From a virus (Duplodnaviria; Heunggongvirae; Uroviricota; Caudoviricetes): DNA of 64,000 nt. This document shows positions 24,312 to 44,205 of the stretch, piece by piece. The notes beneath the pieces are model-generated. The model was not told the origin of the DNA, ran no database searches, and was given only the letters and a program-made list of their open reading frames with translations. The translations under genes and the position numbers were made by a program. The stretch lies in the IMG/VR virus record IMGVR_UViG_3300045988_163275, positions 1-64,000 of that record; one strand, given 5' to 3'. Every line of letters starts with the position of its first letter. The stretch's first letter is position 1.

Positions 24312-24356
24312 CCTAAACAACTTGTTTAATTCAGTGCCTAACCAATTTGTTTTCTG
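24312..24356 (-). promoter_or_regulatory. two tandem AAACAAnTTGTTT palindromes upstream of terS
   Basis: TAAACAACTTGTTTAA (24314-24329) and AACCAATTTGTTTTC (24340-24354), followed by hairpin GAGCGCAAGGATGCGCTC and the terS RBS. Confidence 0.55.
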
Positions 24357-24387
24357 GGTGTTTAAAACCGGGCTGGGGAGTATTCAG

Positions 24388-24466
24388 AACCTGCTTCCGT
24401 ATATATTTAATAAGTCACTTAGTATTTATATATACGGAAGCAGGCTCTCAAACTGGCTCCCAGACC
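24388..24466. repeat. 80-bp element: 17-bp inverted repeat around a TAAGTA-type palindrome (copy A)
   Basis: CCTGCTTCCGTATATAT, 21-nt loop (taataagtcacttagtattt), ATATATACGGAAGCAGG, then CTCTCAAACTGGCTCCCAGAC; between operon stop and terS promoter. Confidence 0.7.
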
Positions 24467-24469
24467 GAC

Positions 24470-24736
24470 TTACATCACCAGTAATTTGGCTCTGGCACGA
24501 CCTAACGTGGTCAGTCCCAGCGTGCGACGGTGGTAGCCGGAATCACCGCGCTGGCGGCACATTCCTTTCTCCACCAGCCCCTTTTTCACCAGTGCGCGGA
24601 TAGAGAACTGCATACTCTGTTTGGTCGTTTTGTACGGCAGCACTTCAAGCAGCTCGTCCAGATCGAGCAGATGCCCACGCTCATGGCCTAAATTGATGGT
24701 TTTGATGATGTCTTTTTGTTTGTCGGTCAACGTCAT
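24470..24736 (-). CDS. small winged-helix DNA-binding protein (putative regulator)
   Basis: 88 aa, HTH-like core (TTKQSMQFSIRALVKKGLVEKG); last gene of the ParB/ABC/GNAT operon, just upstream of the 17-bp IR hairpin element. Confidence 0.4.
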   Translation of the reverse strand: MTLTDKQKDIIKTINLGHERGHLLDLDELLEVLPYKTTKQSMQFSIRALVKKGLVEKGMCRQRGDSGYHRRTLGLTTLGRARAKLLVM

Positions 24737-24745
24737 GGCAAATCC

Positions 24746-25645
24746 TTATGCCGGTAATGCAATTTCAAGAGGTTTATTCAAAGGCTGTTTGTCGAATGCC
24801 AGCAGTGGCAGCGTGTCCGGCAGCTGACGACCAAAGTCCGGGTTTCGGTACACGCCATACAGCGGAGACGTGAAGCTCAGGTTGTGAATGTCCTTGAGCA
24901 GCTTCACGATGCTGGTCTCGTCCACCAGGCTGTCGGCAATGTCCTGAATCGTCGTGCCACGATTACGCCCGGCTTTGGCCAGGGAACTGTTCTTGTGGTA
25001 GTCAGCGACCAGATCACGCAGCGCACGACGACGGCGAGACTCACTCATGGCGAACAGCTCTTTGACGATCGCTTCGTTGTCGCCAGGGTCAGAACGGAAA
25101 TGACGCTGGAAGACGCGCAACGCACTCTCATAGCTCTTCGGACGCTCCGGACGGATGAACTGGAACCCTGCTTTCATGGCGAACGGGTTGTATTTGCTCA
25201 TCGACGACTGGATCTCGATGATTGGCCGGTCGTGCATCCTGCTAACCAGGTTAATCATTCGATAGGAGACGCCGACACCGCGGTACTGAGTGTCAACAAC
25301 GGAACGGCTGATCACGGCAAAGTTGTTGTTCACGTACCGGCCCCAATACTGGTTGGCCACGGTGGTATTGGTGGTTGGCTTCAGCTTAGGAAACATGCGA
25401 TGGCGAGGCGCCAGCAGCAGTTTCGGGTAAGCCATAACCACGACGCCCACCAGCCGGTCGTCCAGTTCGCAGCGATAATACGTTGGCGCGAACGGCTTAC
25501 CATCCGTCTTGTAGTGCAGCGACTTCAGCGCGTGCCAGTCTTCAACCGTGCCTTTGGTAACGGTCATACGCTCCAGAAAGTCCAGATGACGCGGGAACTC
25601 TTCCGGGCGGTAGCGTTTGATGATGATGCCTGTCATGTCGATCAC
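24746..25645 (-). CDS. GNAT-like acyltransferase domain protein with C-terminal extension
   Basis: GNAT-type motifs (VVDTQYRGVGVSYRMINLV ... NPFAMKAGFQFI) in the N-terminal half, plus about 130 aa of unknown C-terminal sequence. Confidence 0.4.
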   Translation of the reverse strand: MIDMTGIIIKRYRPEEFPRHLDFLERMTVTKGTVEDWHALKSLHYKTDGKPFAPTYYRCELDDRLVGVVVMAYPKLLLAPRHRMFPKLKPTTNTTVANQYWGRYVNNNFAVISRSVVDTQYRGVGVSYRMINLVSRMHDRPIIEIQSSMSKYNPFAMKAGFQFIRPERPKSYESALRVFQRHFRSDPGDNEAIVKELFAMSESRRRRALRDLVADYHKNSSLAKAGRNRGTTIQDIADSLVDETSIVKLLKDIHNLSFTSPLYGVYRNPDFGRQLPDTLPLLAFDKQPLNKPLEIALPA

Positions 25646-29516: not shown

Positions 29517-29795
29517 ATGAGCGAGAAACGCGCTATTAACTGCCAGGTTAAGTTAACCGAAAAAGCAAACGATAAACTAGAGACCTTTCAGAATCGACTG
29601 CGTGAACGCAGCATAAAACTGTCAAAGGCAGACATCATCAATCTGGTGCTGTCCAATATGACGATGGGTGATTTTGATAAGATAGCTACGTCATTAGAGA
29701 CTACTGCAAAGGCTCGTGAAAAGGTCATGAAGATTTACGAAAACTCGGGTATGACCAAAGAAGATCTGGCCGATATTCTAAAACGCCTCGATTGA
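29517..29795 (+). CDS. hypothetical protein
   Basis: 92 aa ORF starting 3 nt after the helicase stop. Confidence 0.4.
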   Translation: MSEKRAINCQVKLTEKANDKLETFQNRLRERSIKLSKADIINLVLSNMTMGDFDKIATSLETTAKAREKVMKIYENSGMTKEDLADILKRLD

Positions 29796-30281: not shown

Positions 30282-30809
30282 ATGACGAATATTACTGACA
30301 TCACCTACGGGATTCCTGCAGAAGTCTGGCCGCGCGATTACACCAACGTGGAGAAAGCGCTGATGTTCTGGCGCAAGTCTCTTATTCCTGTAAGGGTCAC
30401 GATGGAAGATGGTCAGGTGTTCTGCATGTATGTTCAGGGTCTCATGTCGTCACGCAACAAGGTCGACCTTTGCCCTGCCCCGTTCGACAAAGATAATCGT
30501 ATAAGGCTCCCACTTGAGCGAATCAGCACGATTGAATCAGGTGTGACAGAAGGCATTGCACACGACTTCACGGGTCGGACAACGATACACCCAGACTATG
30601 TGGACAATCGGCCATCTCGCCGTGATTTCTTCAAAATTTGTCGCCAGGCCCATGAGATGCAGAAGTCTATAAGGGTCTACATGGCGGATGGCCGTGAAAT
30701 TGAGGGGGTGTCTTCAGGCGTTGACGCTTGTCAGGTCACACTCAACATGGGGGACGGTAGGAAGACAGTCGCCATGTTCGATTGGGTCGAACGGATTTTA
30801 CCGTTTTAA
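30282..30809 (+). CDS. hypothetical protein
   Basis: 175 aa from MTNITDITYG; last gene before the AT-rich island. Confidence 0.4.
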   Translation: MTNITDITYGIPAEVWPRDYTNVEKALMFWRKSLIPVRVTMEDGQVFCMYVQGLMSSRNKVDLCPAPFDKDNRIRLPLERISTIESGVTEGIAHDFTGRTTIHPDYVDNRPSRRDFFKICRQAHEMQKSIRVYMADGREIEGVSSGVDACQVTLNMGDGRKTVAMFDWVERILPF

Positions 30810-32136: not shown

Positions 32137-32679
32137 TTATTGTCCGAAGTTAGCCAAAACAGACCAAAGGCAAGCGCCATAAAAGCGCCAATTTAACGCA
32201 TTTTTGCGAGTCGCAGTATCTGACCATTACCCACAATAAAAACACGTTATAGCACGTTTTACAGCGTTTTAGCGTGTTGCTTATTTTGTCGTGTCGTTGG
32301 CGTGATCCGCGCTATCCTTCGGGACGTGTCGGCAATATTGGCGCTATCCGTGGGCGCTCGCATATGATTGCCACGTTGGGCAACGTGTACGCGCTTACAG
32401 TGGTTTACCCACGGATTCACATAATCACATAGCGAAAGCTATCTGGATGGCCCAGGGGCTGAAACCCCACCAGCGCTACCCCAGCGCCGCTACGCAATTT
32501 CTGGCGCGATTCCGGGTTTCTCCCGCTCAGTTTTCTACATAAAGGCGACCCCCGCCGTTTCCCGAAAAAATCTTGGCCGTTTCCCGTCGGCTCATGAATG
32601 CGTTCCTCGCCGTTTCTGAAAATTTCCCTGCGGCAGCTGGTGGCTATAGAGAAAGGGCCGTTTCTGGCCCTCTTCTCAG

Positions 32680-33162
32680 TTACACGCCATCAAGGATGTG
32701 GATGCGGTTGCTTGCGTATACATTCAGCATAAAGTTAGCGCAAAACAGTTTCCATGTGTCAACGCCAGCGGCATACGTAATGTTTTTGCATTTTATTGCA
32801 TTGTTGGCGATCCACATCCCCTGCGATACTGCTTCATCGTCGGAAAATTTGAACGACGATTGAGTTTTAATCCAGACAGAAATCTGCGTAGCGAACTCAA
32901 TCAGCTTGGACTGGCAGAATCGCCCGGAGCGCACCGGAAAGACGAACGTTCCGAATCCAGAATTTACCACATATGCTTTCTCAAATACCCGCGAGTAACG
33001 ACGATTGCCAATGATGTCGCGTGCAATAATGCATTTTTCTTGTGCTGACAGTTCTACCGTCTCATTGTCGCGCCATGCACCAAGTACTCGTTTTTCAATG
33101 TCAGAGAACGTTACAGCGATATTGCCATGTGCGGGTGCGTTTACAGTAGCGATAAAATTCAT
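32680..33162 (-). CDS. hypothetical early protein
   Basis: 160 aa; conserved promoter plus palindrome module directly upstream. Confidence 0.45.
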   Translation of the reverse strand: MNFIATVNAPAHGNIAVTFSDIEKRVLGAWRDNETVELSAQEKCIIARDIIGNRRYSRVFEKAYVVNSGFGTFVFPVRSGRFCQSKLIEFATQISVWIKTQSSFKFSDDEAVSQGMWIANNAIKCKNITYAAGVDTWKLFCANFMLNVYASNRIHILDGV

Positions 33163-33179
33163 GATTAATTACTTATCGT

Positions 33180-33240
33180 AAATAACAAATTGTTTTCTTG
33201 TTGGTGTTAATTATCGTTGTACGAATAAGGCGTCAAAGTG
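33180..33240 (-). promoter_or_regulatory. promoter plus AAACAAnTTGTTT palindrome module
   Basis: Minus strand: CTTTGACG-N16-GATAAT-taacaccaacaag-AAAACAATTTGTTA, upstream of 32680..33162. Confidence 0.55.
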
Positions 33241-33366
33241 GAAAGTTGCGGTAGCCGGACGGGAACAGGTGGGTTTGTCGGTTGCCTGGAGGTAAGAGGT
33301 TGGTGTTTTTAGCCTGCGGGAAACAGGATGGTCATTTAAGGCCACCAGCATTGGTGGCCTTACTCT

Positions 33367-33648: not shown

Positions 33649-33664
33649 GAGCATATCCTCACTG

Positions 33665-33722
33665 CGTAAACATATTGTTTTCTTGTTGGTGTAATTATCG
33701 CAGTGTAGATAAGGCATAAAAG
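33665..33722 (-). promoter_or_regulatory. promoter plus palindrome module
   Basis: Minus strand: ...GCGATAATtacaccaacaagAAAACAATATGTTT, upstream of 33367..33648. Confidence 0.55.
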
Positions 33723-34414: not shown

Positions 34415-34435
34415 AGAAAACAAATTGTTATCGGG
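34415..34435. promoter_or_regulatory. AAACAAnTTGTTT-type palindrome copy
   Basis: GAAAACAAATTGTTAT upstream of 33984..34358; flanked by the recurring GCCTTATCT block. Confidence 0.4.
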
Positions 34436-34871: not shown

Positions 34872-34908
34872 TTCACTCTCCTTAGTGTTTAATTTTTAAT
34901 TTTATTAT

Positions 34909-34927
34909 CATAAGTAAGTACTTACAA
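34909..34927. repeat. TAAGTA-type palindrome
   Basis: cataagtaagtacttacaat; upstream of 34476..34871. Confidence 0.5.
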
Positions 34928-34992
34928 TACAAAAAAGCCCCGAAGGATTGGCGGGGCTGTCGTACATTCGACTAACTACTGCTTGCACATGT

Positions 34993-35304
34993 TTAAGCTA
35001 CCGCCTGAACAGACGCTCGTTGGATCTCTTGTTGGGCGACACGGTTGGCTTCCATCAGCGCCAGTTCAAGCTGGTCCTCTGGCCACATTTTCTGGACCGA
35101 CATCCACCCTCTTCCACGCTGGCGACGAACTACCATCACATAGCGCGTAAAATTGCCCGCGTCGAAGGTAATGGCTTTTTCACGAAACAGACGGATAGAA
35201 GTCCCATTCGCTACGATATCCAGCAATGTGAGATGCCCCATTAAGGTTGGTTTTTCTTTTCTATCCTGGCCTTCAGCAAGACCCAGCACCAATGAAGTAT
35301 TCAT
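34993..35304 (-). CDS. hypothetical early protein
   Basis: Start at MNTSLVLGLAEG (RBS GGAG); promoter plus palindrome module upstream. Confidence 0.4.
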   Translation of the reverse strand: MNTSLVLGLAEGQDRKEKPTLMGHLTLLDIVANGTSIRLFREKAITFDAGNFTRYVMVVRRQRGRGWMSVQKMWPEDQLELALMEANRVAQQEIQRASVQAVA

Positions 35305-35311
35305 CACCACT

Positions 35312-35385
35312 CCGTAAACAAATTGTTTTCTCAATGGCGTAAATAATACCAGTGTAAAAACGGCTACAAAGCATATTGCTCAGGC
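35312..35385 (-). promoter_or_regulatory. promoter plus palindrome module
   Basis: Minus strand: TTTGTAGCC...TATTATttacgccattgagAAAACAATTTGTTTacGGAG, upstream of 34993..35304. Confidence 0.5.
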
Positions 35386-35464
35386 ACATGAATTATCTAA
35401 AGGTGGTTCTGCCCTGCGGCTACAGAGAAGTTAAGCCAGCAGGCGGTGCTGGCTTTGGTTGGGC

Positions 35465-35794
35465 TTACGCGAATAACTCAAGGAATTCCTGCACGTCCCA
35501 ATGCTGGACAAGGTGAAGATAGAGCTTAGAAATCACGTCATTCTCGCTATCGCATGTGAAGTAGTACTTCTGGCTGCGGTTGTATGTGTCCACACAAAAT
35601 TCGCTCATATCCATAAAGTCAGCATCTTCACCCATGTCGCAAATAATCAAAGCAGGAGCATCATCACGAGTCATCAGCTCAAGCACCCAGCGCGAATTGA
35701 TCAGCGTGGAAGACCAACCTTCTAACTCATAAAACTGGTCAAACTCTTTTTGAGTCATTTTCTTGATTTGGTTGATGTCGATATTTGCAAACAT
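35465..35794 (-). CDS. hypothetical early protein (acidic)
   Basis: Start at MFANIDINQ (RBS AAGGAT); promoter plus palindrome module upstream; acidic (DMGEDADFMDMSEF). Confidence 0.4.
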   Translation of the reverse strand: MFANIDINQIKKMTQKEFDQFYELEGWSSTLINSRWVLELMTRDDAPALIICDMGEDADFMDMSEFCVDTYNRSQKYYFTCDSENDVISKLYLHLVQHWDVQEFLELFA

Positions 35795-35802
35795 AAAGCA
35801 AT

Positions 35803-35882
35803 CCTTAAACATGTTGTTTTCTGAATTGCGTAAACAATACCAGTAAGAAAACGGCCACAAAGTATATCGTTACGGTGCTGCG
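35803..35882 (-). promoter_or_regulatory. promoter plus palindrome module
   Basis: Minus strand: ...TATTGTttacgcaattcagAAAACAACATGTTTAAGGAT, upstream of 35465..35794. Confidence 0.5.
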
Positions 35883-35933
35883 CTGCCCCGGAGGTTAATA
35901 GCGACAAAAGCCACCGTGCTGGTGGTCTCACTC

Positions 35934-36152
35934 TTAATCTTCGTCGTCCGGGAACTCGCTGTGTACCGCGTCCACCAGCTCCCGCTTTTCATCTTCACTA
36001 AGCAGGTGCCAGATATCCTTCCCTTTGGGCGATTCCCCTTCTGCCGGGACGAACGACCACAACTTGCGGTACAACTCCGGCCCCACTGCATCCAGACACT
36101 CAGCCAGGGAATCCACGCCCCACACCTCAACCGTCACAGGCATCTTAATCAT
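35934..36152 (-). CDS. hypothetical small acidic protein
   Basis: 72 aa, very acidic C-terminus (LLSEDEKRELVDAVHSEFPDDED); RBS GAGGA; promoter plus palindrome module upstream. Confidence 0.45.
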   Translation of the reverse strand: MIKMPVTVEVWGVDSLAECLDAVGPELYRKLWSFVPAEGESPKGKDIWHLLSEDEKRELVDAVHSEFPDDED

Positions 36153-36181
36153 CTCTTCATCCTCACTTCGTTTCTATAACG

Positions 36182-36242
36182 TCTAAATATGTTGTTTACT
36201 TGTTGGTGTTATTATCGCAATAAGACAAAGGCGAAAAAGGAT
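36182..36242 (-). promoter_or_regulatory. promoter plus palindrome module
   Basis: Minus strand: CCTTTTTCGCCTTTG...GCGATAATaacaccaacaagTAAACAACATATTT, upstream of 35934..36152. Confidence 0.55.
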
Positions 36243-37382
36243 TTTATGTCGTGAAAGCCAGGCTGGGCAGTGAATATCCGGGAACGACACGGGAACCAGT
36301 ATTTACGATATTCTGCTCTACGCGCGCCGCAGGGCTGGTGGGCAGAATTTTCTTCTCCCCGAAAACCTACTGAAATCGCTTGAGACCCGAGGATGGTCTG
36401 GCAGACTGGAGTTCAGCAGCTGCACGAGAGGGAACGACACTCCCCCGCGATTTTCAGGCGAGTGAAGAGTAAGGCGCACTCCCGAAGATTTCCCGCACCG
36501 CTCCCGCAGTCGTCTCTCACTCTGTACCGGGATGTACCCGTTTCCCGACCGGCAGCCAGCCTTTTCCCGGTTCGTATAGCGAGATTCCCACCGTTTCCCT
36601 GAAAAACCTCCAGCCTTTTCCCTGCGGCGACGTTCCCGTTCCTGAAAAGGGACATGGCCTTTTCCCTGGATGGCCCGAAGGCTGACCGAAGGGGTGGATA
36701 GGGACGTTACGGGGGATGAAAGCTATGGCTTGAATTTATACGAAGAAAGTGGCGATACCCCTCCTTCCCTTCCCACTTATACCTCCCACGAATTTTCTCT
36801 CTTATGTGGGCATAAATCTTCTCTCTGATAACGCTCAATACGGCGACTATTCCTGTGGGTGAAATGGGTGGTTTGTTCTTTCTACCGGCATATGTGGTTT
36901 CGTTCTTCTTGAGGTGGTTCTTCTCTGTGTTTTCGTCAGGGTTGTTCTCGTTGTTTTGGTGATTGTTCTTCTCTGTGTATGGAGTAATGGCAGGTGGGCG
37001 ATTCCTTTCGTTATTGTATTTGAGTTGTTTGTCTTGAGAGCGTGAAAGGCTTTTGTGGTTATTTGTGTATTGAGTAATGGCGTTTCCCCGCGAATGTTCT
37101 GTTTCGTGTCTTTGGGGATTGAGGGAGTCCTTGCGGTAACAGGCTTCGTTAGAGTTTCAGTGGTTCTGGTGTTTATTCGCTGTTTGGGGAATGGCGTGTA
37201 GTGGGTATCGCATGTATGAATGTTTCGAGTTGCCTGTGAAAGTTAGGTTGGTTGTCCGGTAGCCTGGGAAGAAGAGGTGGGTCTTTTCAGTAGCCTGCCA
37301 TAAAGAGGTTGGTTGTTTTTGGGAATGTGGGTAATGGCGTCTCTGGGTTTCCTGTGGGTGTGGTTAGCTTGTTTTCTTGTGT

Positions 37383-37403
37383 CTGAAAACAACTTGTTTA
37401 GAT
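37383..37403 (+). promoter_or_regulatory. plus-oriented palindrome copy inside the gene-free region
   Basis: ttgttttcttgtgtctGAAAACAACTTGTTTAG on the plus strand; no obvious downstream protein gene. Confidence 0.35.
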
Positions 37404-37741
37404 GTCCAATATAACGCAACGGGAGCGCTTCTGAGCGTGTCTGTTTTTGGGTGGTATCACGAGTCGTTTTTGACGTTTTGGTCGCAGGGAGATGGATTCT
37501 GGTACGCTGGATTTGGGTATAAGAGATGGCGTGCGAAAACATCAACTTTTTAGACCAAATCAGGGGAAAGCGTTGACTTTACGTTGATGTGTTATTTATT
37601 TGTTTTCTTATGGGTGTAATTAGCTTAAATGCCTTGTCACGCCTGGGATTGAGTGGGGTAGGGTGGTGGGGAAAGTGGCGATCAACGGACTCTTATAGAA
37701 ATCCTCAATTTGTGACCGCCAATATCAACGAGTTGCAGCCG

Positions 37742-38311
37742 TTAGTTGTTCAGATAGGCATCCGGAACGCGCACATAAAAGTTTCTTTCGCCGGTCAGTT
37801 CCAGAGTAACGTTTATGTCGTTGCCGTTATCCAGCGTAGCCGTCGCTTTATAGAACTTGTCCGTCACCTTGTCCTGAATTGTCACCTTCATACATTTCGG
37901 CGCTGTGGTTCCGTTATTCTCTTTCAGAATGGTCGTTACGAGAGGACAAGCCGCTTCTTCAAGAGCAACCTCTTCCTGGTGTGGGATACCGATGAAGATG
38001 TTACCAGCAAGCAACGCGACGATTACGATAAAAGGAAGTCGACTGCCTTTTGTAACGGTGGCACGTTTCCAGAGATAGACCGGAAGGAGAAATACTCCCC
38101 ACAGGATGGCCGGTGGTTCATACCCTGCATCAGACAATGCCATTCTGTCAGCCACCAGAAAGCCGAGTCCAGCGACTCCACCTATCACTATTGCATAATT
38201 CAAATACTCATCTGGCGGTACTCCAAAGAAGAGAGGCAGTAAAGCTAGAAGCCACGCATAAGCATTATTCAGAGGTTTTGTTTGTTGGTTCTGGGTTTCC
38301 ATCACATCCAT
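37742..38311 (-). CDS. integral membrane protein (candidate exclusion protein)
   Basis: Three predicted TM helices (WLLALLPLFFGV, AIVIGGVAGLGFLV, ILWGVFLLPVYLW, FIVIVALLAGNIFIGI) and a C-terminal soluble domain; last gene of a three-gene early operon. Confidence 0.5.
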   Translation of the reverse strand: MDVMETQNQQTKPLNNAYAWLLALLPLFFGVPPDEYLNYAIVIGGVAGLGFLVADRMALSDAGYEPPAILWGVFLLPVYLWKRATVTKGSRLPFIVIVALLAGNIFIGIPHQEEVALEEAACPLVTTILKENNGTTAPKCMKVTIQDKVTDKFYKATATLDNGNDINVTLELTGERNFYVRVPDAYLNN

Positions 38312-38387
38312 TCCATCAGATTAAAAAGCGGTACTATGTTACCAATTTTCTTCGCTTATATGACATGATTACTCAACGAGTGGGCGA

Positions 38388-38708
38388 TCACCATTCCCAT
38401 GCAGGTAGCCCATCCACCAGCTCGGCGTCGCAATCGAAGTGAACCACGTCAAAGCCGTCATCCAGTATGGTCTGTATGTTGGAGATCGCCTCTTGGGAAA
38501 TGCCGTACTCACGCAGTTCTTCCTTCCAGTCATTCCCTCGCATTCCAGCACGAACAATCCAGCCGTACTGTGTACCGTGTACCCAATTCAACCCGCGATC
38601 AGTAAGTGGGTCGAAGCAGGCAATGGGTAGCCGTTCTGAATCCGCTGCCGTGACGTGGGCGGTGCTGATCACCGCCGTCTTATACGATTCGGTGATTTTC
38701 AGCATCAT
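38388..38708 (-). CDS. hypothetical early protein
   Basis: 106 aa, start/stop coupled to the upstream gene. Confidence 0.45.
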   Translation of the reverse strand: MMLKITESYKTAVISTAHVTAADSERLPIACFDPLTDRGLNWVHGTQYGWIVRAGMRGNDWKEELREYGISQEAISNIQTILDDGFDVVHFDCDAELVDGLPAWEW

Positions 38709-38938
38709 GCCTTCTCCTTTGGAAACAGAATGTTGGCCGTGTCAGAAATGACATCCCAATTCACGCCGACGCTGGCGTCATGGCACTCTTTGATTTTTCG
38801 CAAAACCTGAACGCACTGTTCGTCAGTCAGGTCTGGTCGCCCTTCACCTACATCTTCCTTGTGCCACATCACCATCAGCAGCGGCTCGTCTTCTGGGTAG
38901 TTCTCCAGCTTTTCGATAATTTCTTTCGCGGTTCCGAA
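38705..38938 (-). CDS. hypothetical early protein
   Basis: Start at MFGTAKEIIEKL with RBS AAGGAG; promoter plus palindrome module upstream. Confidence 0.45.
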   Translation of the reverse strand, partial: FGTAKEIIEKLENYPEDEPLLMVMWHKEDVGEGRPDLTDEQCVQVLRKIKECHDASVGVNWDVISDTANILFPKEKA

Positions 38939-38949
38939 CATGATTAACT

Positions 38950-39012
38950 CCTTAAACAATTTGTTTTCTTATTGGTATTATTATCTCAAATAACGAAAGG
39001 CAGAAAACAAGA
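38950..39012 (-). promoter_or_regulatory. promoter plus palindrome module
   Basis: Minus strand: CCTTTTCTGCCTTTCG...GAGATAATaataccaataagAAAACAAATTGTTTAAGGAG, upstream of the 38938-37742 operon. Confidence 0.55.
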
Positions 39013-39026
39013 TGTTTAAGGGATGA

Positions 39027-39350
39027 CTAGGTGAGTTTGAAGTCGTCTATGTCATCAACAAACTCCATATACCTGGCTTCGACACTCGACAATCTGATCA
39101 GATACGCAAGCCCGTAACTTAGTGAAGTGGGTTGCTCCAGCACAAATTCGAACCCATCCTCATGCGTTTTACCAAGCCAGAACCCCCCACCGTATTCTTT
39201 TTCACGTTGGAAGAAAACGAACTGTCCGGGTATTAGGTGCTTGAGTGCTTCGCCCCTATAGACGATCACATATTTAGAATTCTTGCTGCCCATTGCTCGC
39301 CTCGCAATACTGCACATATAAACAGTGGTATTTATTACGGTACTGGTCAA
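39027..39350 (-). CDS. hypothetical protein
   Basis: 107 aa ORF (true start may be internal MGSKNSKYVIVYRG); palindrome copy upstream. Confidence 0.35.
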   Translation of the reverse strand: MTSTVINTTVYMCSIARRAMGSKNSKYVIVYRGEALKHLIPGQFVFFQREKEYGGGFWLGKTHEDGFEFVLEQPTSLSYGLAYLIRLSSVEARYMEFVDDIDDFKLT

Positions 39351-39377
39351 CTTTACGGGTTAATTGAATAACAAGAT

Positions 39378-39400
39378 GGTGAAAACAATTTGTTTTGGCG
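39378..39400. promoter_or_regulatory. palindrome copy in the region between genes 39350 and 39481
   Basis: GAAAACAATTTGTTTTGG. Confidence 0.4.
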
Positions 39401-39480
39401 CTTGAGATTTTGCAAATCGCACCTACATGGAAAACGGCAATTTTTGAAACCTGATTTGACCCATGTGAAAGGAGGAAACG

Positions 39481-39684
39481 ATGAAGACCTATGATCGCAA
39501 CCGTAACACTATCACTACCGGCAGCCGAGTGATGGTGGCAACGAATGGTGCAACGGGAGTCATCAAGGAAATCTGCGGAGAAGGCAAATCAGAAGAACAA
39601 TTACGCCGCTCTGACTGCGTGTCTATCGAAGGTGTGGAAGATCTGTTCTGCCCAATGGATTTAGTTCGCCTGGGATTCCAATAA
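39481..39684 (+). CDS. hypothetical small protein
   Basis: 67 aa with strong RBS AGGAGG; terminated by palindrome plus hairpin. Confidence 0.45.
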   Translation: MKTYDRNRNTITTGSRVMVATNGATGVIKEICGEGKSEEQLRRSDCVSIEGVEDLFCPMDLVRLGFQ

Positions 39685-39704
39685 TTACACCACTAATTAA
39701 ACAA

Positions 39705-39745
39705 ATTGTTTAAGGCCACAAATAATGGCCTTATCTGGCTTACGG
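39705..39745. terminator. palindrome plus hairpin between convergent genes
   Basis: TTAAACAAATTGTTTAAGG followed by hairpin AAGGCCACAAATAATGGCCTT, between 3' ends of 39481..39684 (+) and 39740..40444 (-). Confidence 0.4.
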
Positions 39746-40444
39746 AACAGCAGTAATCAGATCGCAAATGCCTGTTTTAGTTAAATCACTATTTAGCTTC
39801 TGAAAATTGGCATTCAGCATTGCGGTATGTATTCGATTCTCAAGTTCAAAGAAGAGATCGATCTTGCCCTCTTTGGCTGCCACCTTCTTCCAAATATTCA
39901 CCTGGTCATCTGCGATACGACTTGCGCAGGTGAACAAGAACGAACTCCCTCTGGGAAGGGATGTCGTGCTGTAGTATTCACCGTCAACTTCAATATACTT
40001 AGCTCGGAATGACTCCAGAGTTAGCTTTTTACCGCTCTCAGCCTGCTTTGTGTCTGCCTTGCTTGTCTTTTCCTGAACTTCAGGCTGTTTCTGCACAGGC
40101 TTTGGTGTCTCATTGACCACCGCAGTGCTGGCCGAACCATCCAAACTCTTGAGGCCATTAATTTGGATTAGATAAGCCAACTCCAGAGTCTTATCACCAG
40201 TGAGTTTTCCACGCATACTTACCCATTGACGCTGAACCGTCTTTAAGGCGTCTGCGTCCCCCGGGTTTGCTTTGAGTGCGTTGGAATAGGTAGAGCTAAG
40301 TTGTTCGTCTAATTTTGACAGGCGTTCGTTATCGCAGATTTTGTGTTCGATTTCTGCCGAAGCCTTTTGGCAGTCAAAGCTGGCTGCAAATACAGCCGGC
40401 GATGCCACCAACAATGATGCCAGTAGGATATTTTTCATATTCAC
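39740..40444 (-). CDS. secreted protein with lysozyme-inhibitor-like (LprI/DUF1311-type) N-terminal domain
   Basis: Signal peptide (MNMKNILLASLLVASPAVFA), then FDCQKASAEIEHKICDNERLSKLDEQLSSTYSNALK...QRQWVSMRG, resembling the Cys-containing DUF1311 pattern; family assignment from memory. Confidence 0.45.
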   Translation of the reverse strand: MNMKNILLASLLVASPAVFAASFDCQKASAEIEHKICDNERLSKLDEQLSSTYSNALKANPGDADALKTVQRQWVSMRGKLTGDKTLELAYLIQINGLKSLDGSASTAVVNETPKPVQKQPEVQEKTSKADTKQAESGKKLTLESFRAKYIEVDGEYYSTTSLPRGSSFLFTCASRIADDQVNIWKKVAAKEGKIDLFFELENRIHTAMLNANFQKLNSDLTKTGICDLITAVP

Positions 40445-40476
40445 TCCATAAATATAAAAGCGCCTGACTATAGCAC

Positions 40477-40692
40477 TTAACCGATTGCTTCTCTCATCTG
40501 ATTGTGAAGCTCTTTCAGCCCATTACGTACCGCGTTCATGATACGTTCCAGGTATTGGTATCTGGGGTTTGGCACCGTTGGCCAACCGGCATACCACGGA
40601 TCGTCACCAAACAGACTCAGCAGTTCGTTACCGACACCGAAACAGCAGCAACTTTCTTTTACGTCATCAGCGTTTTCTGCCTCGTCCCACAT
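40477..40692 (-). CDS. hypothetical small protein
   Basis: 71 aa ORF in the early cluster. Confidence 0.3.
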   Translation of the reverse strand: MWDEAENADDVKESCCCFGVGNELLSLFGDDPWYAGWPTVPNPRYQYLERIMNAVRNGLKELHNQMREAIG

Positions 40693-40738
40693 ATTGCGGG
40701 CCTGCTCTGCGTCGATTTCTCTCTCTCCCTGCGCAACT

Positions 40739-40978
40739 TTATGATTTCGGATTTGACGAAAAGCAGGTTTGCGTCGTTGTCATCGTCGACCGTACTGAAG
40801 TGGCACACTGAATTTGGCCGTCTGTAATGGGCAGATCCGGCAACTGTTTAAAAACTTCCATCTGCTCATGGATACGCAGAAACCACCTTGCCAGCTCCAT
40901 CTGCTCACCGCGGGTGAGGGGATTATTCAGCGGGGACTTAACAAAAGCGGAGACTCGCTCGACAAGCAGATCATTCAT
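40739..40978 (-). CDS. hypothetical small protein
   Basis: Start at MNDLLVERVS, ATGA-coupled to the upstream gene. Confidence 0.35.
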   Translation of the reverse strand: MNDLLVERVSAFVKSPLNNPLTRGEQMELARWFLRIHEQMEVFKQLPDLPITDGQIQCATSVRSTMTTTQTCFSSNPKS

Positions 40979-41664
40979 GCCGCGCACCTCTCTGCTTTCT
41001 CCTGCAATTCGCGAACGAACTCGACCAAAGAGCCACCTGGCGGGATCTGGCATTCCTCAACCAACTGGAAGTATATGTCTGCGGCCGCGCGTGTGTTCGA
41101 GCCTTTGTTTAGCTGCTCTTCGCGCAGCGCATCACGTTCATTAATCAAACGGACGCACTCGCCGTTACGCTGATCCACAACGGCCTCAAGTTCAGCGATA
41201 CGTTCGCCAGGAGTCTTACCTTCTTTACGTTGAATGGTGACGGTAAACTCACCCATTTCAGGAACGTCGTACCCCAGCTCCAGGTAGTTTCTGGCCCCGC
41301 TACGAACAAACTCACCGGCAAACATGGTTGCGAACATCGCAGAGGCCATTTCACCTTTAAACAGAGACTCCAAATCTAACGGAGTACCCGCAGCCAGAGC
41401 CGTTTTTTCTGTATCAATTGCAGACATGAATGCATCAAATTCACGAGCACGTTTTTCCAGGTCTCTCCATTGCTCGCTCCAACGTTTAGCAACGAAGTCT
41501 ATGAATGTTTTCGCGGATTCATCATAATCCCCTTCAAACTTAACAGTGCCTTTGTCAATGATGATCTGGTCTACTGCTTCCTCTGCATAACCTCTCATTA
41601 CAAATTTGAAAGGAAAGTCGGCATGGCTTTTGACGTTAAAACGCTCTAACGGAAGATTGCTCAT
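40975..41664 (-). CDS. hypothetical protein
   Basis: 229 aa; TAAGTA-type palindrome upstream; no recognisable motif. Confidence 0.45.
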   Translation of the reverse strand: MSNLPLERFNVKSHADFPFKFVMRGYAEEAVDQIIIDKGTVKFEGDYDESAKTFIDFVAKRWSEQWRDLEKRAREFDAFMSAIDTEKTALAAGTPLDLESLFKGEMASAMFATMFAGEFVRSGARNYLELGYDVPEMGEFTVTIQRKEGKTPGERIAELEAVVDQRNGECVRLINERDALREEQLNKGSNTRAAADIYFQLVEECQIPPGGSLVEFVRELQEKAERCAA

Positions 41665-41706
41665 GTGTTTTTTCTCTTATCATATAGTCACTATATTCTT
41701 ACATAG

Positions 41707-41728
41707 ATTAGGTAAGTATTTACCTCTC
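41707..41728. repeat. TAAGTA-type palindrome
   Basis: attaggtaagtatttacctctc; between the methyltransferase stop and 41664 start. Confidence 0.5.
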
Positions 41729-43412
41729 ATTTAACGCGTTTAAAAACGTATACGCTGACAGTAATCCCGGTGTCTTCAAACATGTTAGTAAACGACTTCC
41801 CTTTGGCATAAACGTAATTATCCAGCGTCATCCAGTTTAGAATTGGCGCGTCGCCCGGCAGCACTGCTACCAGACGCCCACCGACTTTCAGATGTCCCAG
41901 CGCGGCCAACGTGTGCTCTCTGTGACGGCCAAGAGAGTAGGGCGGGTTCATGACGATTTTGTCGAACTGATAACCTGCGTTGTCCTCAGACCACTTCATG
42001 AAGTCGCAGCAGACCGTATTTGTGTACCCCTTGCCAAGCAGGATATCAGCGAAGAGAGGTGCGACTTCTATGCAGGTAACGTCTTCCGGATTGGCGTCGA
42101 TGCAGGCCAGCAGATCTCCGCGCCCGGCTTCAGGCTCCAGCAGCTTCTCACCTGGCTTCAGCTCGATGGCTCTGGCAACGTACTCCGCTATCAAACGCGG
42201 GGTAGGGTAGAACTGGTGTGATTTTGTATCCGGTATTAAGCCGGTGGCCACAATCGTATTGAGCGTATGGCCGATCTCATACGGGAACTGCCAGTGCTTG
42301 TTCTCCTGCACGCCGCCAATAAAGCTCAGTGTACGCTCCAGCTCTTCCACCTGTGACTTCTGAAGACCGGAATCAGAGAAGTACCATACGCGTTTGTCAT
42401 TGCCAGATCGCCCGTCGCGAAGCGCAGTACGCACCGGCTCGGAGATCGTCTTCTGGATTAACCCGAACTGTTTTGGTGCCCGTGTTTTGGGCGCAGTACG
42501 ACATGGAGCCGGGATTGCAGCGGGCATACTGTAAGCCAGCACCTCATTCAGCTTCCAGGCTACGTCAGGATGTATTTCAAAGTGAACGTTGCCGTTCTTA
42601 AACATCTTCACACGCATCAGGTTTCCGTCGACATTCATCCAGTCGCCGGTCTGGCAGTCATTTGCTCGATACGCAGCTGACAGCATCTCGGCCGTGCGGT
42701 TGATGGTGATAAATTCTTTGTGTGCAAAGAAATGCAACATGACGCGCAGGTCGTCTATGTAATCCTCTTTCCGGTAGTTAACGCTGACGCTGTCCCGCCA
42801 GAAATCGGAAATGCAGTCGGCGATGATCAGACGCTCGCTGAAGCCGTTCGTCTTATTGGTCTTGTGAGCAGGACTCAACGCCTTAAACAAGCCATACACG
42901 CGCTCAGAGAGATATTTGTGCCTGTCATTCAGCAAATTAAGCATCGTTGGTATGACCGTTTCTGCTTTGAACTCAGGTACACCAACGAACTCTTTAACCT
43001 TCATTTGATAGCCAGTTCTGTCAGTCTTGATCGTTTCCTGCTTGCCCTCGATAAACTGTTCACGCCACTCGTCGCGGCGGGATGCTGGCATGATCAGCAG
43101 AACGTTGGTCATATCCGTGACCTTCTTCCAGTACTCGGCCCAGATATTTTGTTTCACCCATTCCAGGTCGACTTTGTCCAGCCAGGTTCTGTTAAAGCGT
43201 GTGCGCTCGTCGTCCGGCCGGTGGTTAAGTCGCAGTAGACGGTTAATCATGTTGTGGCGTTCGTCGCCATAAACGAAGTCGTGAACCTTATTCATGAACG
43301 CAATCTCTTTCTCGCATTCGGCCACAATTTCGTGGATAACATTCATTTCCTGCCGGTAGTCAATACCGGTGTCTGGAGTGATAGAGTCAATGATGGAAAG
43401 GGCTGTATTCAT
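41727..43412 (-). CDS. DNA methyltransferase (N6-adenine/N4-cytosine type) with large N-terminal domain
   Basis: C-terminal methyltransferase motifs: motif I (LLEPEAGRGDLL) and motif IV (VMNPPYS); about 390-aa N-terminal region of unknown function; true ATG at MNTALSIIDS; promoter plus palindrome module upstream. Confidence 0.7.
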   Translation of the reverse strand: MNTALSIIDSITPDTGIDYRQEMNVIHEIVAECEKEIAFMNKVHDFVYGDERHNMINRLLRLNHRPDDERTRFNRTWLDKVDLEWVKQNIWAEYWKKVTDMTNVLLIMPASRRDEWREQFIEGKQETIKTDRTGYQMKVKEFVGVPEFKAETVIPTMLNLLNDRHKYLSERVYGLFKALSPAHKTNKTNGFSERLIIADCISDFWRDSVSVNYRKEDYIDDLRVMLHFFAHKEFITINRTAEMLSAAYRANDCQTGDWMNVDGNLMRVKMFKNGNVHFEIHPDVAWKLNEVLAYSMPAAIPAPCRTAPKTRAPKQFGLIQKTISEPVRTALRDGRSGNDKRVWYFSDSGLQKSQVEELERTLSFIGGVQENKHWQFPYEIGHTLNTIVATGLIPDTKSHQFYPTPRLIAEYVARAIELKPGEKLLEPEAGRGDLLACIDANPEDVTCIEVAPLFADILLGKGYTNTVCCDFMKWSEDNAGYQFDKIVMNPPYSLGRHREHTLAALGHLKVGGRLVAVLPGDAPILNWMTLDNYVYAKGKSFTNMFEDTGITVSVYVFKRVK

Positions 43413-43421
43413 GATTGCACC

Positions 43422-43482
43422 ATTAAACAAATTGTTTTCTTATTGGTGTTATTTTCTCAAAGCTAAAAAGGCGTAAAAGCAG
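43422..43482 (-). promoter_or_regulatory. promoter plus palindrome module
   Basis: Minus strand: GCTTTTACGCCTTTTT...GAAAATAACACCAATAAGAAAACAATTTGTTTAATGG, upstream of the methyltransferase gene. Confidence 0.55.
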
Positions 43483-43552
43483 CATTCACAGGCGTTGCAG
43501 CTGATTTAAGACGTAAAAAGGGGGCTTTCGTCCCCTGTACGCAGGTGAGAGA

Positions 43553-44125
43553 TTAGTGGTGTACGTGCTGCGTTTTGTACGGCTGTTTGTTCAGGTTGTG
43601 GCGGTGCATAAGCTCGCGCATCATGTCTTCAAGACGGCTCTTGGTGTCGTCAAGCTGGTCGGCCATTGCCCCCAGCAGCTGGCGAAGGGCCATCGGATCG
43701 TCGCTGTTCAGCTCAGGCATTTTGAACCCAGCCTGGGAAGACATCAGTTTGAAAGCGGCCAGCAACATCGCCAGAGAAGACTTCAGCCCGGCGATTTCAT
43801 GATCTTTGCTGGCGTTGGTTTCATCTGCCTTGACTGAATCCAGTGAGCACTTCGGCTTGCTTACCATTTCCAGAGTTGCCTGAAGTTTGTCGGCGCGTTC
43901 TTTCTCTTCCAGATACGCTTCGCCGAAATGACGCGCCAGCATCACAATTTCAATCGGATCATCAATCATGCTTGAGAACTTGAGAACGCTGAAAAGGCGG
44001 TCAATAGGGGAGGCGTCGTCTTCGTGACCAACCACAAGACCCATGATCTCAACCAGTTCGGCCGCACCAACTTTTTTAATCACGCTTTCAACTTTGGCAT
44101 TAGTTTTTTTGCATTTTTCACACAT
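43553..44125 (-). CDS. hypothetical protein
   Basis: 190 aa, N-terminal CxxC (MCEKCKK); promoter plus palindrome module upstream. Confidence 0.45.
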   Translation of the reverse strand: MCEKCKKTNAKVESVIKKVGAAELVEIMGLVVGHEDDASPIDRLFSVLKFSSMIDDPIEIVMLARHFGEAYLEEKERADKLQATLEMVSKPKCSLDSVKADETNASKDHEIAGLKSSLAMLLAAFKLMSSQAGFKMPELNSDDPMALRQLLGAMADQLDDTKSRLEDMMRELMHRHNLNKQPYKTQHVHH

Positions 44126-44141
44126 GTGTTCTTCCTTATGC

Positions 44142-44205
44142 TTTTAAACAAGTTGTTTTCTTAATTGTTTAATTGTCTCAAATTCTATGATGATGTGAAG
44201 AGTTG
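44142..44205 (-). promoter_or_regulatory. promoter plus palindrome module
   Basis: Minus strand: ...ACAATTAAACAATTAAGAAAACAACTTGTTTAAAAG, upstream of 43553..44125. Confidence 0.5.

What the first reader, a model, noticed from the sequence alone, without database searches (positions are those of the whole stretch)
24312..44205. Regulon-like family of a 13-bp palindrome AAACAAnTTGTTT at 13 or more promoters, including terS
At least 13 copies of AAACAA(A/T)TTGTTT occur in the window. About nine sit in a conserved block of roughly 60 bp (CTTTTACGCCTTT ... GATAAT-aACACCAAcAAG-AAAACAAnTTGTTT) directly upstream of small minus-strand genes, with the palindrome placed just downstream of a sigma70-like -10, where repressor operators usually lie. 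Two tandem copies precede terS, the first gene of the late operon. One copy lies at a convergent terminator and one faces the other way inside the gene-free region. The low-GC island promoter has no copy. This looks like the operator set of a master repressor (lysogenic/plasmid-state silencing) or of another dedicated phage DNA-binding protein. No obvious repressor gene is in the window; the 88-aa wHTH protein at 24470..24736 is only a weak candidate.
Basis: seen in the sequence. Interest (0 to 1): 0.7.

Follow-up and report, generated by a model that had tools for sequence, protein, structure and literature searches.

The report
Operator-like palindrome regulon, SSU5-type phage-plasmid
A 13-base palindrome (AAACAAnTTGTTT) sits at fixed positions around about a dozen promoters of an SSU5-like phage-plasmid and is unchanged across the whole phage family, so it is very probably the DNA docking site of one still unidentified phage regulator that switches a block of early genes and the packaging operon together.

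Summary
AAACAAnTTGTTT occurs 8 times exactly and 14 times with at most 1 mismatch, against 0.38 expected. All copies are intergenic.

The window is an SSU5-like phage-plasmid. The motif is the top palindrome in every relative examined, including Klebsiella elements and a lineage whose small regulators are only about 33% identical.

Most copies follow an extended -10 promoter (TGnGATAAT) by exactly 13-14 nt, so they span about +8 to +20. Others are inverted over the -35 region. Neighbouring copies lie almost only 51 or 25 bp apart. The RNA hairpin is negligible (-0.7 kcal/mol). Orthologous target genes are silent in a published lysogen transcriptome.

Best reading (about 0.5): a set of double-stranded DNA operators for one conserved dimeric phage regulator. 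The binder is not identified. The 88-aa winged-helix-like protein beside terS fits best, because it is well conserved, has an invariant recognition helix and is adjacent to the terS sites.

- a FljA-family protein, modelled here as tandem Hfq-like domains;
- a 92-aa protein whose N-terminus looks ribbon-helix-helix (RHH)-like.

A rival reading (about 0.2) is that the FljA-like protein binds the motif in mRNA leaders.

A second palindrome family (TAAGTACTTA) also exists.

The parts
24340..24352 (.). Motif copy AACCAATTTGTTT (1 mismatch). It is the first site of the terS leader, read on the minus strand, and follows a degenerate block (TTTAAAcacccaga).
24315..24327 (.). Exact copy and second terS-leader site, 25 bp from the first. 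It abuts a terminator-like hairpin.
24294..24313 (-). Terminator-like hairpin GGAGCGCAAGGATGCGCTCT plus GAGTGTTTT, lying between the two sites and the terS ATG (24274).
   Evidence: A hairpin is kept with a different stem sequence in L044 and L180.
33183..33195 (.). Class I copy (1 mismatch), 14 nt after GATAAT, in the leader of gene 32680-33162 (-).
33668..33680 (.). Class I copy (1 mismatch), 13 nt after TGcGATAAT, in the leader of gene 33367-33648 (-).
34418..34430 (.). Class II copy (1 mismatch), inverted and overlapping the -35 region of the promoter (TGtGAAAAT) of gene 33984-34358 (-). This promoter has no downstream copy.
35316..35328 (.). Exact class I copy, 14 nt after TGgTATTAT, for gene 34993-35304 (-).
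35807..35819 (.). Class I copy (1 mismatch), after TGgTATTGT, for gene 35465-35794 (-).
36185..36197 (.). Degenerate class I copy (2 mismatches), after TGcGATAAT, for gene 35934-36152 (-).
37387..37399 (.). Exact copy inside the gene-free, repeat-rich region. Distant relatives have two copies 25 bp apart at this place.
38954..38966 (.). Exact class I copy, 13 nt after TGaGATAAT (hexamer 38980-38985, minus strand), for gene 38705-38941 (-).
39005..39017 (.). Class II copy (1 mismatch), inverted, 51 bp from 38954, over the -35 region of the same promoter.
39383..39395 (.). Exact copy between divergent genes 39027-39293 (-) and ydfZ 39481-39684 (+). On the plus strand the context is block-like.
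39699..39711 (.). Exact copy after the ydfZ stop codon. It follows a plus-strand block-like sequence (AATAATtacaccactaatt) and abuts the hairpin AAGGCCAC..ATGGCCTT between convergent genes.
43425..43437 (.). Exact class I copy, after TGaGAAAAT, for gene 41727-43412 (-), a DUF4942/methyltransferase-like gene.
44146..44158 (.). Exact class I copy, after TGaGACAAT, for gene 43553-44125 (-).
24470..24736 (-). Candidate binder 1: an 88-aa winged-helix-like protein, the last gene before the terS leader sites.
   Evidence: It is 75-91% identical across all lineages, and the stretch TTKQSxQFSxRALxKKGLVEK is invariant. Pfam LexA_DNA_bind is below threshold: E = 2.9e-4 for the L180 homologue and 0.14 for this copy. 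The Cyrano annotation reads 'DNA binding domain containing protein'.
29517..29795 (+). Candidate binder 2: a 92-aa protein whose N-terminus looks RHH-like, lying between the helicase gene and the FljA-like gene.
   Evidence: The gene order is conserved. In the Cyrano lysogen it runs at about 12x background. The RHH fold is not supported statistically. It is only 33-39% identical in lineages that keep the motif unchanged.
30282..30809 (+). Candidate binder 3, for the rival RNA-level reading: a FljA-family protein modelled as two Sm/Hfq-like domains in tandem.

Best explanation
The palindrome is a double-stranded DNA operator. One conserved, dimeric, sequence-specific regulator encoded by the phage-plasmid binds it and blocks RNA polymerase at a family of extended -10 promoters.

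Binding occurs in two positions. One is just downstream of the start site, centred at about +14, comparable to lac O1. The other lies over the -35 region, centred at about -38. When both are present they are exactly 51 bp apart, about five helical turns, so the two bound dimers could cooperate. Tandem sites 25 bp apart occur in the terS leader and in the gene-free region.

The regulated set comprises a battery of small early genes, each with its own promoter. In the complete SSU5 genome it also includes parA, dnaB, a cobT-like gene, nrdB and the leader of the packaging (terS) operon.

What is shown: the motif, its statistics, its geometry, its conservation, and the low mRNA level of orthologous targets in a lysogen.

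What is inferred: the transcription start sites, that the effect is repression, and the identity of the binder. My first choice is the 88-aa winged-helix-like protein at 24470-24736. The 92-aa RHH-like protein or a host protein remain possible.
For: 1. Over-representation: 14 copies with at most 1 mismatch against 0.38 expected, all intergenic. SSU5 has 20 copies genome-wide.

2. Symmetry: perfect 6-1-6 dyad symmetry with an uninformative centre (63/51/65/49 A/C/G/T in 228 unique contexts). This is what a symmetric dimer on duplex DNA produces.

3. Coupling to the promoter: in 126 of 269 unique contexts a -10-like hexamer ends exactly 13-14 nt upstream, and 100 of those carry TGn. The distance to the start codon ranges from 6 to 115 nt.

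4. Class II copies overlap the -35 region and lie upstream of the presumed start site. In the distant lineage L180-L183 at least five promoters have only this upstream copy, followed by a leader with no palindrome. An RNA element cannot explain these.

5. Spacing: neighbouring sites are 51 bp apart in 41 unique contexts and 25 bp apart in 15. Only 3 cases have any other distance.

6. Footprint: in the alignment of ten diverged orthologues of the 38954 promoter, the two palindromes, TGAGATAAT and the Shine-Dalgarno sequence are the invariant blocks, while the spacer between -10 and palindrome varies.

7. RNA structure: the hairpin is worth only -0.7 kcal/mol, and the leaders fold no better than shuffles (z = -0.43 to +1.58). 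There are no compensatory changes among variant copies.

8. Expression: in the Cyrano lysogen the orthologous motif genes CYRAN_101, 105, 106, 108 and 110 are at 5.7-12.8 normalised reads (111 at 25.5) against a median of 9.8, despite good extended -10 promoters (PMC9928086 S1 Table).

9. Binder: the 88-aa protein is 75% identical in the lineage where the FljA-like and 92-aa proteins have dropped to 31-39%. Its putative recognition helix is invariant, which matches an invariant site, and its gene ends 118 nt from the terS sites. It shows weak LexA-type winged-helix similarity.
Against: No binding, start-site or mutational data exist for any copy.

The flanks are asymmetric and oriented: AGA on the promoter-proximal side and A on the other. 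A purely symmetric operator does not need this.

The copy before dnaB in SSU5 and Cyrano lies 12-28 nt after the upstream stop codon, with no room for the block promoter. It looks tied to the ribosome-binding site rather than to a promoter.

About a third of copies end 12-14 nt before a start codon.

Immunity operators of temperate phages normally diversify, whereas this one is invariant. It may therefore not be the lysogeny operator at all.

The winged-helix assignment of the 88-aa protein is below threshold. Its mRNA is low in LB-grown lysogens (7.8 against a background of 9.8), although it is 2-8x above its operon neighbours in the other conditions.

parA carries the motif and is nevertheless expressed in the lysogen (about 50).
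Confidence: 0.5

Rival explanations
1. RNA-level operator. The transcribed element AGAAAACAAnUUGUUUA, sitting just 5' of the ribosome-binding site, is bound by the phage-plasmid's FljA-like tandem-Sm protein (30282-30809). The protein blocks translation and so destabilises about 20 mRNAs, in the way Salmonella FljA acts on the fliC leader.
For: - The window encodes a full-length FljA-family protein (PF03614, E = 1.9e-95).
- FljA-type proteins are reported to prevent fliC mRNA translation (PMC2652032, citing Bonifield & Hughes 2003 and Yamamoto & Kutsukake 2006).
- The gene is present in every SSU5-like phage in GenBank, including six from non-flagellate Klebsiella pneumoniae. One of these also has 11 motif copies in 32.5 kb. 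Flagellin therefore cannot be its only target.
- It is expressed in the Cyrano lysogen (log2 FPKM 7-8 in four of five conditions).
- The fliC leader of Salmonella and Citrobacter reads ...ACATCAAGTTGTAATTGATAAGGAAAAGATCATG. It shares CAAGTTGT followed by AAGGA with the phage leader. I estimate a chance probability of about 0.03-0.1.
- The oriented flanks, the leader position and the intercistronic dnaB copy all fit an RNA signal.
- The leaders are unstructured, as Hfq-type targets are.
Against: - Reverse-complement symmetry has no meaning for a single-stranded RNA ligand, and the hairpin is negligible.
- Class II copies lie upstream of the start site and are the only copy at many promoters in L180-L183.
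- Spacing is rigid relative to the -10 and loose relative to the start codon. The 51/25-bp quantisation points the same way.
- The FljA-like protein is only 31-34% identical in a lineage where the motif is unchanged.
- The operon's own promoter carries the other palindrome, not this one.
Confidence: 0.2
2. The palindrome is the site of a conserved host (Enterobacterales) DNA-binding protein that the phage-plasmid uses to tie its early promoters to host physiology.
For: The motif is invariant across elements from Escherichia, Salmonella, Klebsiella, Enterobacter, Citrobacter, Cronobacter and Nissabacter, while the phage's own small regulators diverge. Such invariance is unusual for phage immunity operators.
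Against: I could recall no enterobacterial regulator with this consensus, and memory is not a test. The host chromosome could not be scanned with these tools. A conserved phage candidate, the 88-aa protein, explains the invariance equally well.
Confidence: 0.08
3. No dedicated trans-acting factor exists. The block is a duplicated promoter-plus-leader cassette (extended -10, an unstructured A/U-rich leader that favours translation) spread by recombination, and the palindrome is carried along as part of it.
For: The block is kept while the downstream gene is exchanged exactly at the ATG (L013/L017 against the window). The leaders are unusually unstructured. The sequence TTGTTTAA followed by a Shine-Dalgarno sequence resembles strong phage leaders; this last point rests on my own knowledge of the T7 gene 10 leader and was not tested.
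Against: - The palindrome is far better conserved than the rest of the block.
- It occurs on its own, without the block, at 37387, 34418, 39005 and many sites in L180.
- It occurs in both orientations at fixed distances.
- It persists unchanged where the flanks have diverged.
Confidence: 0.1

Closest known systems
C1 repressor and its dispersed operators in phage-plasmid P1 (own knowledge)
   Same: The element is a plasmid prophage. One short operator is repeated at more than ten scattered promoters, and each promoter controls a small operon.
   Different: P1 operators are 17 bp and asymmetric, and they are bound by a large monomeric C1. Here the site is a 13-bp perfect palindrome, no C1 homologue was seen, and it is not established that the sites act in lysogeny.
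KorB/OB and KorA/OA global regulons of IncP plasmid RK2/RP4 (own knowledge for OB; KorA as a global repressor is described in PMC2665229, abstract seen)
   Same: OB is also a 13-bp 6-1-6 palindrome, present in about a dozen copies around the replicon at defined positions relative to promoters. Bound proteins cooperate with one another.
   Different: KorB is a ParB-family protein. The two ParB_N proteins in this window show no detectable helix-turn-helix. Their Cyrano orthologues are essentially unexpressed in the lysogen (5-9.5 against a background of 9.8). The sequences are unrelated.
lac O1 and gal/deo-type paired operators (own knowledge)
   Same: An operator centred just downstream of the start site, about +11 to +14, paired with a second operator on the same helical face upstream.
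   Different: The pair here is only 51 bp apart and brackets the core promoter. The arrangement is repeated at many promoters.
Stoperators of cluster A mycobacteriophages L5/L1 (multiple asymmetric operators; PMC1934351, abstract seen)
   Same: A 13-bp site in many copies, mostly in short intergenic regions and oriented with transcription.
   Different: Stoperators are asymmetric and act as roadblocks within operons. Here the core is symmetric and tied to promoter geometry.
FljA acting on the fliC 5'UTR in Salmonella flagellar phase variation (PMC2652032; primary papers not held)
   Same: A homologous protein is encoded in the window. The target lies in a short leader next to the Shine-Dalgarno sequence. 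The core CAAGTTGT..AAGGA is shared.
   Different: FljA has one known target, whereas about 20 would be needed here. The phage protein is only 35-38% identical to chromosomal FljA. The DNA-level features listed above are not explained.
PeSL promoter cassettes of T4-type phages (own knowledge)
   Same: A repeated early-promoter module flanks small, variable open reading frames, and gene swapping occurs at module borders.
   Different: PeSLs carry a stable stem-loop, while this hairpin is worth -0.7 kcal/mol. PeSLs are not proposed to be operators.

Membership tests
Multi-operator regulon of a phage or plasmid global regulator | A specific short site repeated far above chance and confined to regulatory DNA | tested here: met
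   There are 14 copies against 0.38 expected, all intergenic. SSU5 has 20. A Klebsiella relative has 11 in 32.5 kb against 0.2 expected.
Multi-operator regulon of a phage or plasmid global regulator | Sites placed where a bound protein excludes RNA polymerase | tested here: inconclusive
   The geometry fits: 13-14 nt after an extended -10, or over the -35, with 51-bp pairs. However, start sites are inferred, and the plain sigma-70 scan does not call these promoters.
Multi-operator regulon of a phage or plasmid global regulator | A cognate DNA-binding protein encoded by the element and shown to bind the site | not testable with these tools
   There are three candidates in the window (88-aa, 92-aa, FljA-like). 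No binding data exist, and no co-variation test was possible because the site never varies.
Multi-operator regulon of a phage or plasmid global regulator | Target genes silent while the regulator is present | tested here: inconclusive
   The Cyrano lysogen transcriptome shows most orthologous targets at background. This is a different isolate, there is no induction time course, and parA is expressed.
KorB/ParB-type global repressor system | A ParB-family protein with a helix-turn-helix that recognises the 13-bp palindrome | tested here: inconclusive
   Two ParB_N proteins are present (E = 1.4e-13 and 1e-8). The alignment to Spo0J is weak over the helix-turn-helix region and lacks its usual residues. 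The orthologues are not expressed in the lysogen.
FljA (Pfam PF03614, Flag1_repress): membership of the protein at 30282-30809 | A full-length match above Pfam's gathering score | tested here: met
   317.9 bits against a cut-off of 24, covering 1-170 of 170 profile positions. It aligns with chromosomal FljA at 35-38% identity with shared invariant motifs.
FljA-type translational control: membership of the motif as its target | The protein binds the leader RNA and blocks translation | not testable with these tools
   Only indirect evidence exists: the Sm/Hfq-like fold and a shared 8-nt core with the fliC leader.
LexA-type winged helix: the 88-aa protein | A significant match to a winged-helix DNA-binding domain | tested here: inconclusive
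   PF01726 scores 21.0 bits (cut-off 23.7), E = 2.9e-4, for the L180 homologue and E = 0.14 for the window copy. The profile against the PDB gives RosR winged-helix proteins only at E = 1.3.
Ribbon-helix-helix repressor: the 92-aa protein | A detectable RHH fold or sequence relationship | tested here: inconclusive
   By eye the pattern matches CopG (xCQVKLTE...LSKADIINLVL). hhalign against CopG gives probability 2%, the PDB profile search finds nothing relevant, and the monomer model has pLDDT 67 with a disordered N-terminus followed by helices.
Structured RNA element (hairpin, attenuator or riboregulator) | A stable or covarying secondary structure | tested here: not met
   The hairpin is worth -0.7 kcal/mol, and leader z-scores are -0.43 to +1.58 against shuffles. 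Variant copies show no compensatory changes. There is no Rfam hit in 24000-45000.
Start-associated sequences (cluster K mycobacteriophages) | A fixed, very short distance to the start codon, with an asymmetric site | tested here: not met
   The distance to the start codon is 6-115 nt, and the core is a perfect palindrome.
T4-type PeSL promoter cassette | An early promoter plus a stable stem-loop flanking shuffled small open reading frames | tested here: not met
   The promoter module and gene swapping are present, but there is no stable stem-loop.

The most novel reading that the evidence does not exclude
The FljA-like tandem-Hfq-fold protein of SSU5-like phage-plasmids is a global post-transcriptional repressor that recognises the AGAAAACAAnUUGUUUA leader element on about 20 phage mRNAs. 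On this reading the Salmonella phase-variation repressor FljA, with its single fliC leader target, is a domesticated copy of this phage system. The family is tiny (26 cluster representatives among 1.84 billion proteins) and is dominated by phage-plasmid members. That is compatible with such an origin but does not prove it.
Probability: 0.18. Interest if true: 0.85.

Novelty: new member of a known kind. Interest (0 to 1): 0.55.

Why it matters
SSU5-like phage-plasmids are very common in clinical Enterobacteriaceae: one 15-kb query matched 796 plasmid records. They carry resistance genes. I found no description of their gene regulation in the held literature.

A single invariant site at about 20 promoters gives a direct experimental handle in three ways:
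- It defines a regulon.
- It can serve as bait to fish out the regulator.
- It marks promoters that are silent in the plasmid state.

The same work exposes a lysogen-expressed operon encoding a FljA homologue with an Hfq-like fold in elements of non-flagellate hosts. This bears on where the classic Salmonella phase-variation repressor came from and on what that protein family really does.

Tried and rejected
1. Co-variation between site and regulator. I collected relatives through IMG/VR, encoding contigs and metagenomes. The site never changes, so no test was possible. The 88-aa family has no distant members among the 120 listed.

2. Co-occurrence. The FljA-like and 88-aa proteins occur in exactly the same 12 phage records, so they cannot be separated this way.

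3. Scan of viral contigs for GAAAACAANTTGTTT.

4. RNA hairpin or riboregulator. Rejected.

5. Plain sigma-70 consensus scan. It does not call the block promoters; the extended -10 was recognised by inspection and by my own script.

6. CYRAN_45, named 'putative repressor' in PMC9928086. It sits beside an integrase in a Cyrano-specific insertion that is absent from SSU5, so it cannot bind a family-wide site. SSU5_054, annotated 'excisionase/regulator', occupies the position of the Cyrano HicB antitoxin gene; no sequence comparison was run.

7. ParB-like proteins as KorB analogues. Not supported.

8. RHH assignment of the 92-aa protein. Not confirmed.

9. The primary FljA papers could not be read. 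The mechanism is cited through PMC2652032 and from memory.

10. Known host regulators. None that I could recall matches the consensus. The host genome could not be scanned.

Full report
IDENTITY OF THE WINDOW

Region 33000-45000 is 87.7% identical to Salmonella phage SSU5, in inverted orientation. It also matches Escherichia and Klebsiella phage-plasmids such as Cyrano and ST13-OXA48phi12.3. A 15-kb query matches 796 plasmid records from Klebsiella, Escherichia, Enterobacter, Yersinia, Salmonella and others. The window therefore covers roughly the SSU5 map from 62 kb, through the end, to 24 kb.

THE OBSERVATION

AAACAANTTGTTT occurs 8 times exactly, against 0 expected. With at most 1 mismatch there are 14 copies against 0.38 expected. 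With at most 2 mismatches there are 15 against 4.6. All copies lie between 24315 and 44158 and all are intergenic. The central base is any nucleotide.

ANATOMY

Read in the sense of the downstream gene, the extended consensus is AGAAAACAAnTTGTTTA. The AGA flank is nearly as conserved as the core.

The promoter in the block is of the extended -10 type (TGnGATAAT, TGgTATTAT and similar) in 7 of the 8 good blocks. The -35 is poor, which is why the simple TTGACA/TATAAT scan misses these promoters.

Across 269 unique contexts collected from the family, a -10-like hexamer ends exactly 13-14 nt before the core in 126 cases, and 100 of those carry TG. The distance from the core to a start codon with a Shine-Dalgarno sequence ranges from 6 to 115 nt, with a mode at 12-14. 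If the start site lies about 7 nt after the -10, these 'class I' copies span about +8 to +20. This is an inference, because no start site has been mapped.

A second class of copies ('class II': 34418, 39005) is inverted, so that the AGA/TCT flank again faces the core promoter. These copies overlap the -35 region.

Across the family, neighbouring copies are 51 bp apart in 41 unique contexts and 25 bp apart in 15. Only three cases show any other distance.

In the complete SSU5 genome there are 20 copies with at most 1 mismatch. Besides the small genes seen here, they precede parA, dnaB, a cobT-like gene, nrdB and terS. Cyrano has the orthologous copies.

CONSERVATION

The motif is the most frequent 5-mer palindrome in nearly all of 38 related IMG/VR loci; the exceptions are a few short or partial loci. 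It is also the top palindrome in relatives whose FljA-like protein is only 53-58% identical. In a still more distant lineage (L180-L183) there are up to 9 exact copies in 20 kb. A Klebsiella pneumoniae phage-plasmid has 11 copies in 32.5 kb against 0.2 expected.

In an alignment of ten diverged orthologues of the 38954 promoter, the invariant blocks are the two palindromes, TGAGATAAT and AAGGAG. The spacer between the -10 and the palindrome varies. In two relatives the downstream gene is replaced exactly at the ATG.

In L180-L183 at least five promoters carry only the upstream (class II) copy, followed by a leader without the palindrome.

DNA OR RNA?

As RNA the palindrome forms at best a 5-bp hairpin of -0.7 kcal/mol. 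Whole leaders fold no better than shuffles (z = -0.43 to +1.58). Variant copies show no compensatory changes, and Rfam finds nothing in the region.

Several features favour recognition of duplex DNA by a symmetric dimer placed to exclude RNA polymerase:
- dyad symmetry with a free centre;
- rigid coupling to the -10 or the -35;
- copies upstream of the start site;
- the 51/25-bp quantisation.

Three features fit an RNA signal better and keep that reading alive:
- the oriented AGA flank;
- the position of many copies next to the ribosome-binding site;
- the intercistronic copy before dnaB, which has no room for a block promoter.

EXPRESSION

In the published LF82 transcriptome, the Cyrano orthologues of the motif genes (CYRAN_101, 105, 106, 108, 110) show 5.7-12.8 normalised reads in LB, and CYRAN_111 shows 25.5, against a prophage median of 9.8. 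They stay low in all five conditions (PMC9928086 S1 Table). Promoters with near-consensus extended -10 elements that are silent in the lysogen argue for negative control. Post-transcriptional decay would give the same picture.

WHO BINDS?

(a) 30282-30809 encodes a FljA-family protein (PF03614, E = 1.9e-95; PHROG 1444 'transcriptional repressor').
- It is present in all 12 SSU5-like GenBank phages, including six from non-flagellate Klebsiella, so flagellin cannot be its only target.
- The family is tiny: 26 representatives among 1.84 billion proteins.
- FljA-type proteins are reported to block fliC mRNA translation (PMC2652032).
- The fliC leader of Salmonella and Citrobacter, which I retrieved, shares CAAGTTGT...AAGGA with the phage leader. 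My rough estimate of the chance probability is 0.03-0.1.

(b) 29517-29795 encodes a 92-aa protein that always lies between the helicase and FljA-like genes.
- It runs at about 12x background in the lysogen.
- It looks RHH-like by eye, but this was not confirmed.

- It gives sub-threshold LexA-type winged-helix matches.
- Its putative recognition helix is invariant in every lineage.

Between the window and the most distant lineage, which keeps the motif unchanged, the 88-aa protein is 75% identical. The FljA-like and 92-aa proteins are 31-39% identical. An invariant site is most simply paired with the conserved protein, whose gene also ends 118 nt from the terS sites.

The two ParB_N proteins show no convincing helix-turn-helix and are not expressed in the lysogen.

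The promoter of the helicase/92-aa/FljA-like operon carries a different palindrome, TAAGTACTTA. The half-site spacing of that palindrome changes between lineages. That would suit the fast-evolving small regulators better than the invariant motif does. This last step is inference.

VERDICT

The finding is a family-wide regulatory site.

The best-supported mechanism is a set of duplex-DNA operators for one conserved phage-encoded regulator acting at extended -10 promoters (confidence about 0.5). The 88-aa protein is the leading candidate for the binder but is unproven.

The main rival is an RNA-level FljA-type translational regulon (about 0.2). A host factor (0.08) and a factor-free promoter cassette (0.1) follow.

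In kind this resembles P1 C1 operators, RK2 KorB/KorA sites and lac-type downstream operators. The site, its geometry and the candidate regulators appear to be undescribed in the literature I could search.

Noticed in passing
window 9312, 22363, 27895, 33166, 34915, 41713, 46159, 47354, 47740, 48412, 53255, 53405, 54530: There is a second, larger palindrome family, (A)TAGGTAAGTACTTACCTA(T). Its core TAAGTACTTA occurs 4 times exactly and 9 times with one mismatch, against 0.8 expected. It lies in promoter spacers (the helicase/ParB divergent region at 27895; TTGTAT-N17-GATAAT at 34915) and in intercistronic leaders of the late and DNA-metabolism operons. The half-sites are kept, but their spacing changes between lineages (0, 4 or 6 nt).
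   Followed up: partly
window 30282-30809 (+): This is a FljA-family protein (PF03614) modelled as two tandem Sm/Hfq-like domains. It is a core gene of all SSU5-like phage-plasmids, including those of non-flagellate Klebsiella. It is the last gene of a helicase / 92-aa / lipoprotein operon that is expressed in the Cyrano lysogen.
   Followed up: yes
window 24294-24352 (-): The terS leader contains a degenerate block promoter, two motif copies 25 bp apart, a terminator-like hairpin (8 pairs, tail GAGTGTTTT) and then the terS ATG 20 nt later. A hairpin is kept with different stem sequences in distant relatives. This layout is reminiscent of late operons controlled by antitermination.
   Followed up: partly
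window 36250-37560: The gene-free region is full of degenerate direct repeats (GTAATGGCG; TTTCCC(T)G, which also occurs at 32500-32640). There is no Rfam hit. A degenerate block promoter at about 37600 (minus strand) points into it. It may be an origin, a centromere or a non-coding transcript.
   Followed up: partly
window 38941 region, compared with loci L013 and L017: The whole promoter block, with both palindromes, is retained while the downstream gene is replaced exactly at the start codon. The repeated block therefore looks like a recombination joint for swapping small genes.
   Followed up: partly
window 39685-39735 (+): A plus-strand block-like promoter with an exact motif copy starts at the ydfZ stop codon and runs straight into a hairpin (AAGGCCAC..ATGGCCTT). 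The same pairing of motif and AAGGCCAC hairpin recurs in SSU5 (85602, 87625) and in Cyrano. It could be a very short transcript or a bidirectional stop signal.
   Followed up: no
window 44334-45293 (+): A 319-aa protein with an Mrr-type restriction endonuclease domain (PF04471, E = 2e-21) occupies the place where SSU5 has its 'Ant' gene. This is a local gene replacement next to the last motif copy.
   Followed up: no
locus L179, about 2590-2650: In a relative whose FljA-like protein is 45% identical, one leader keeps the ACACCAACAGAA part of the block but lacks the palindrome.
   Followed up: no
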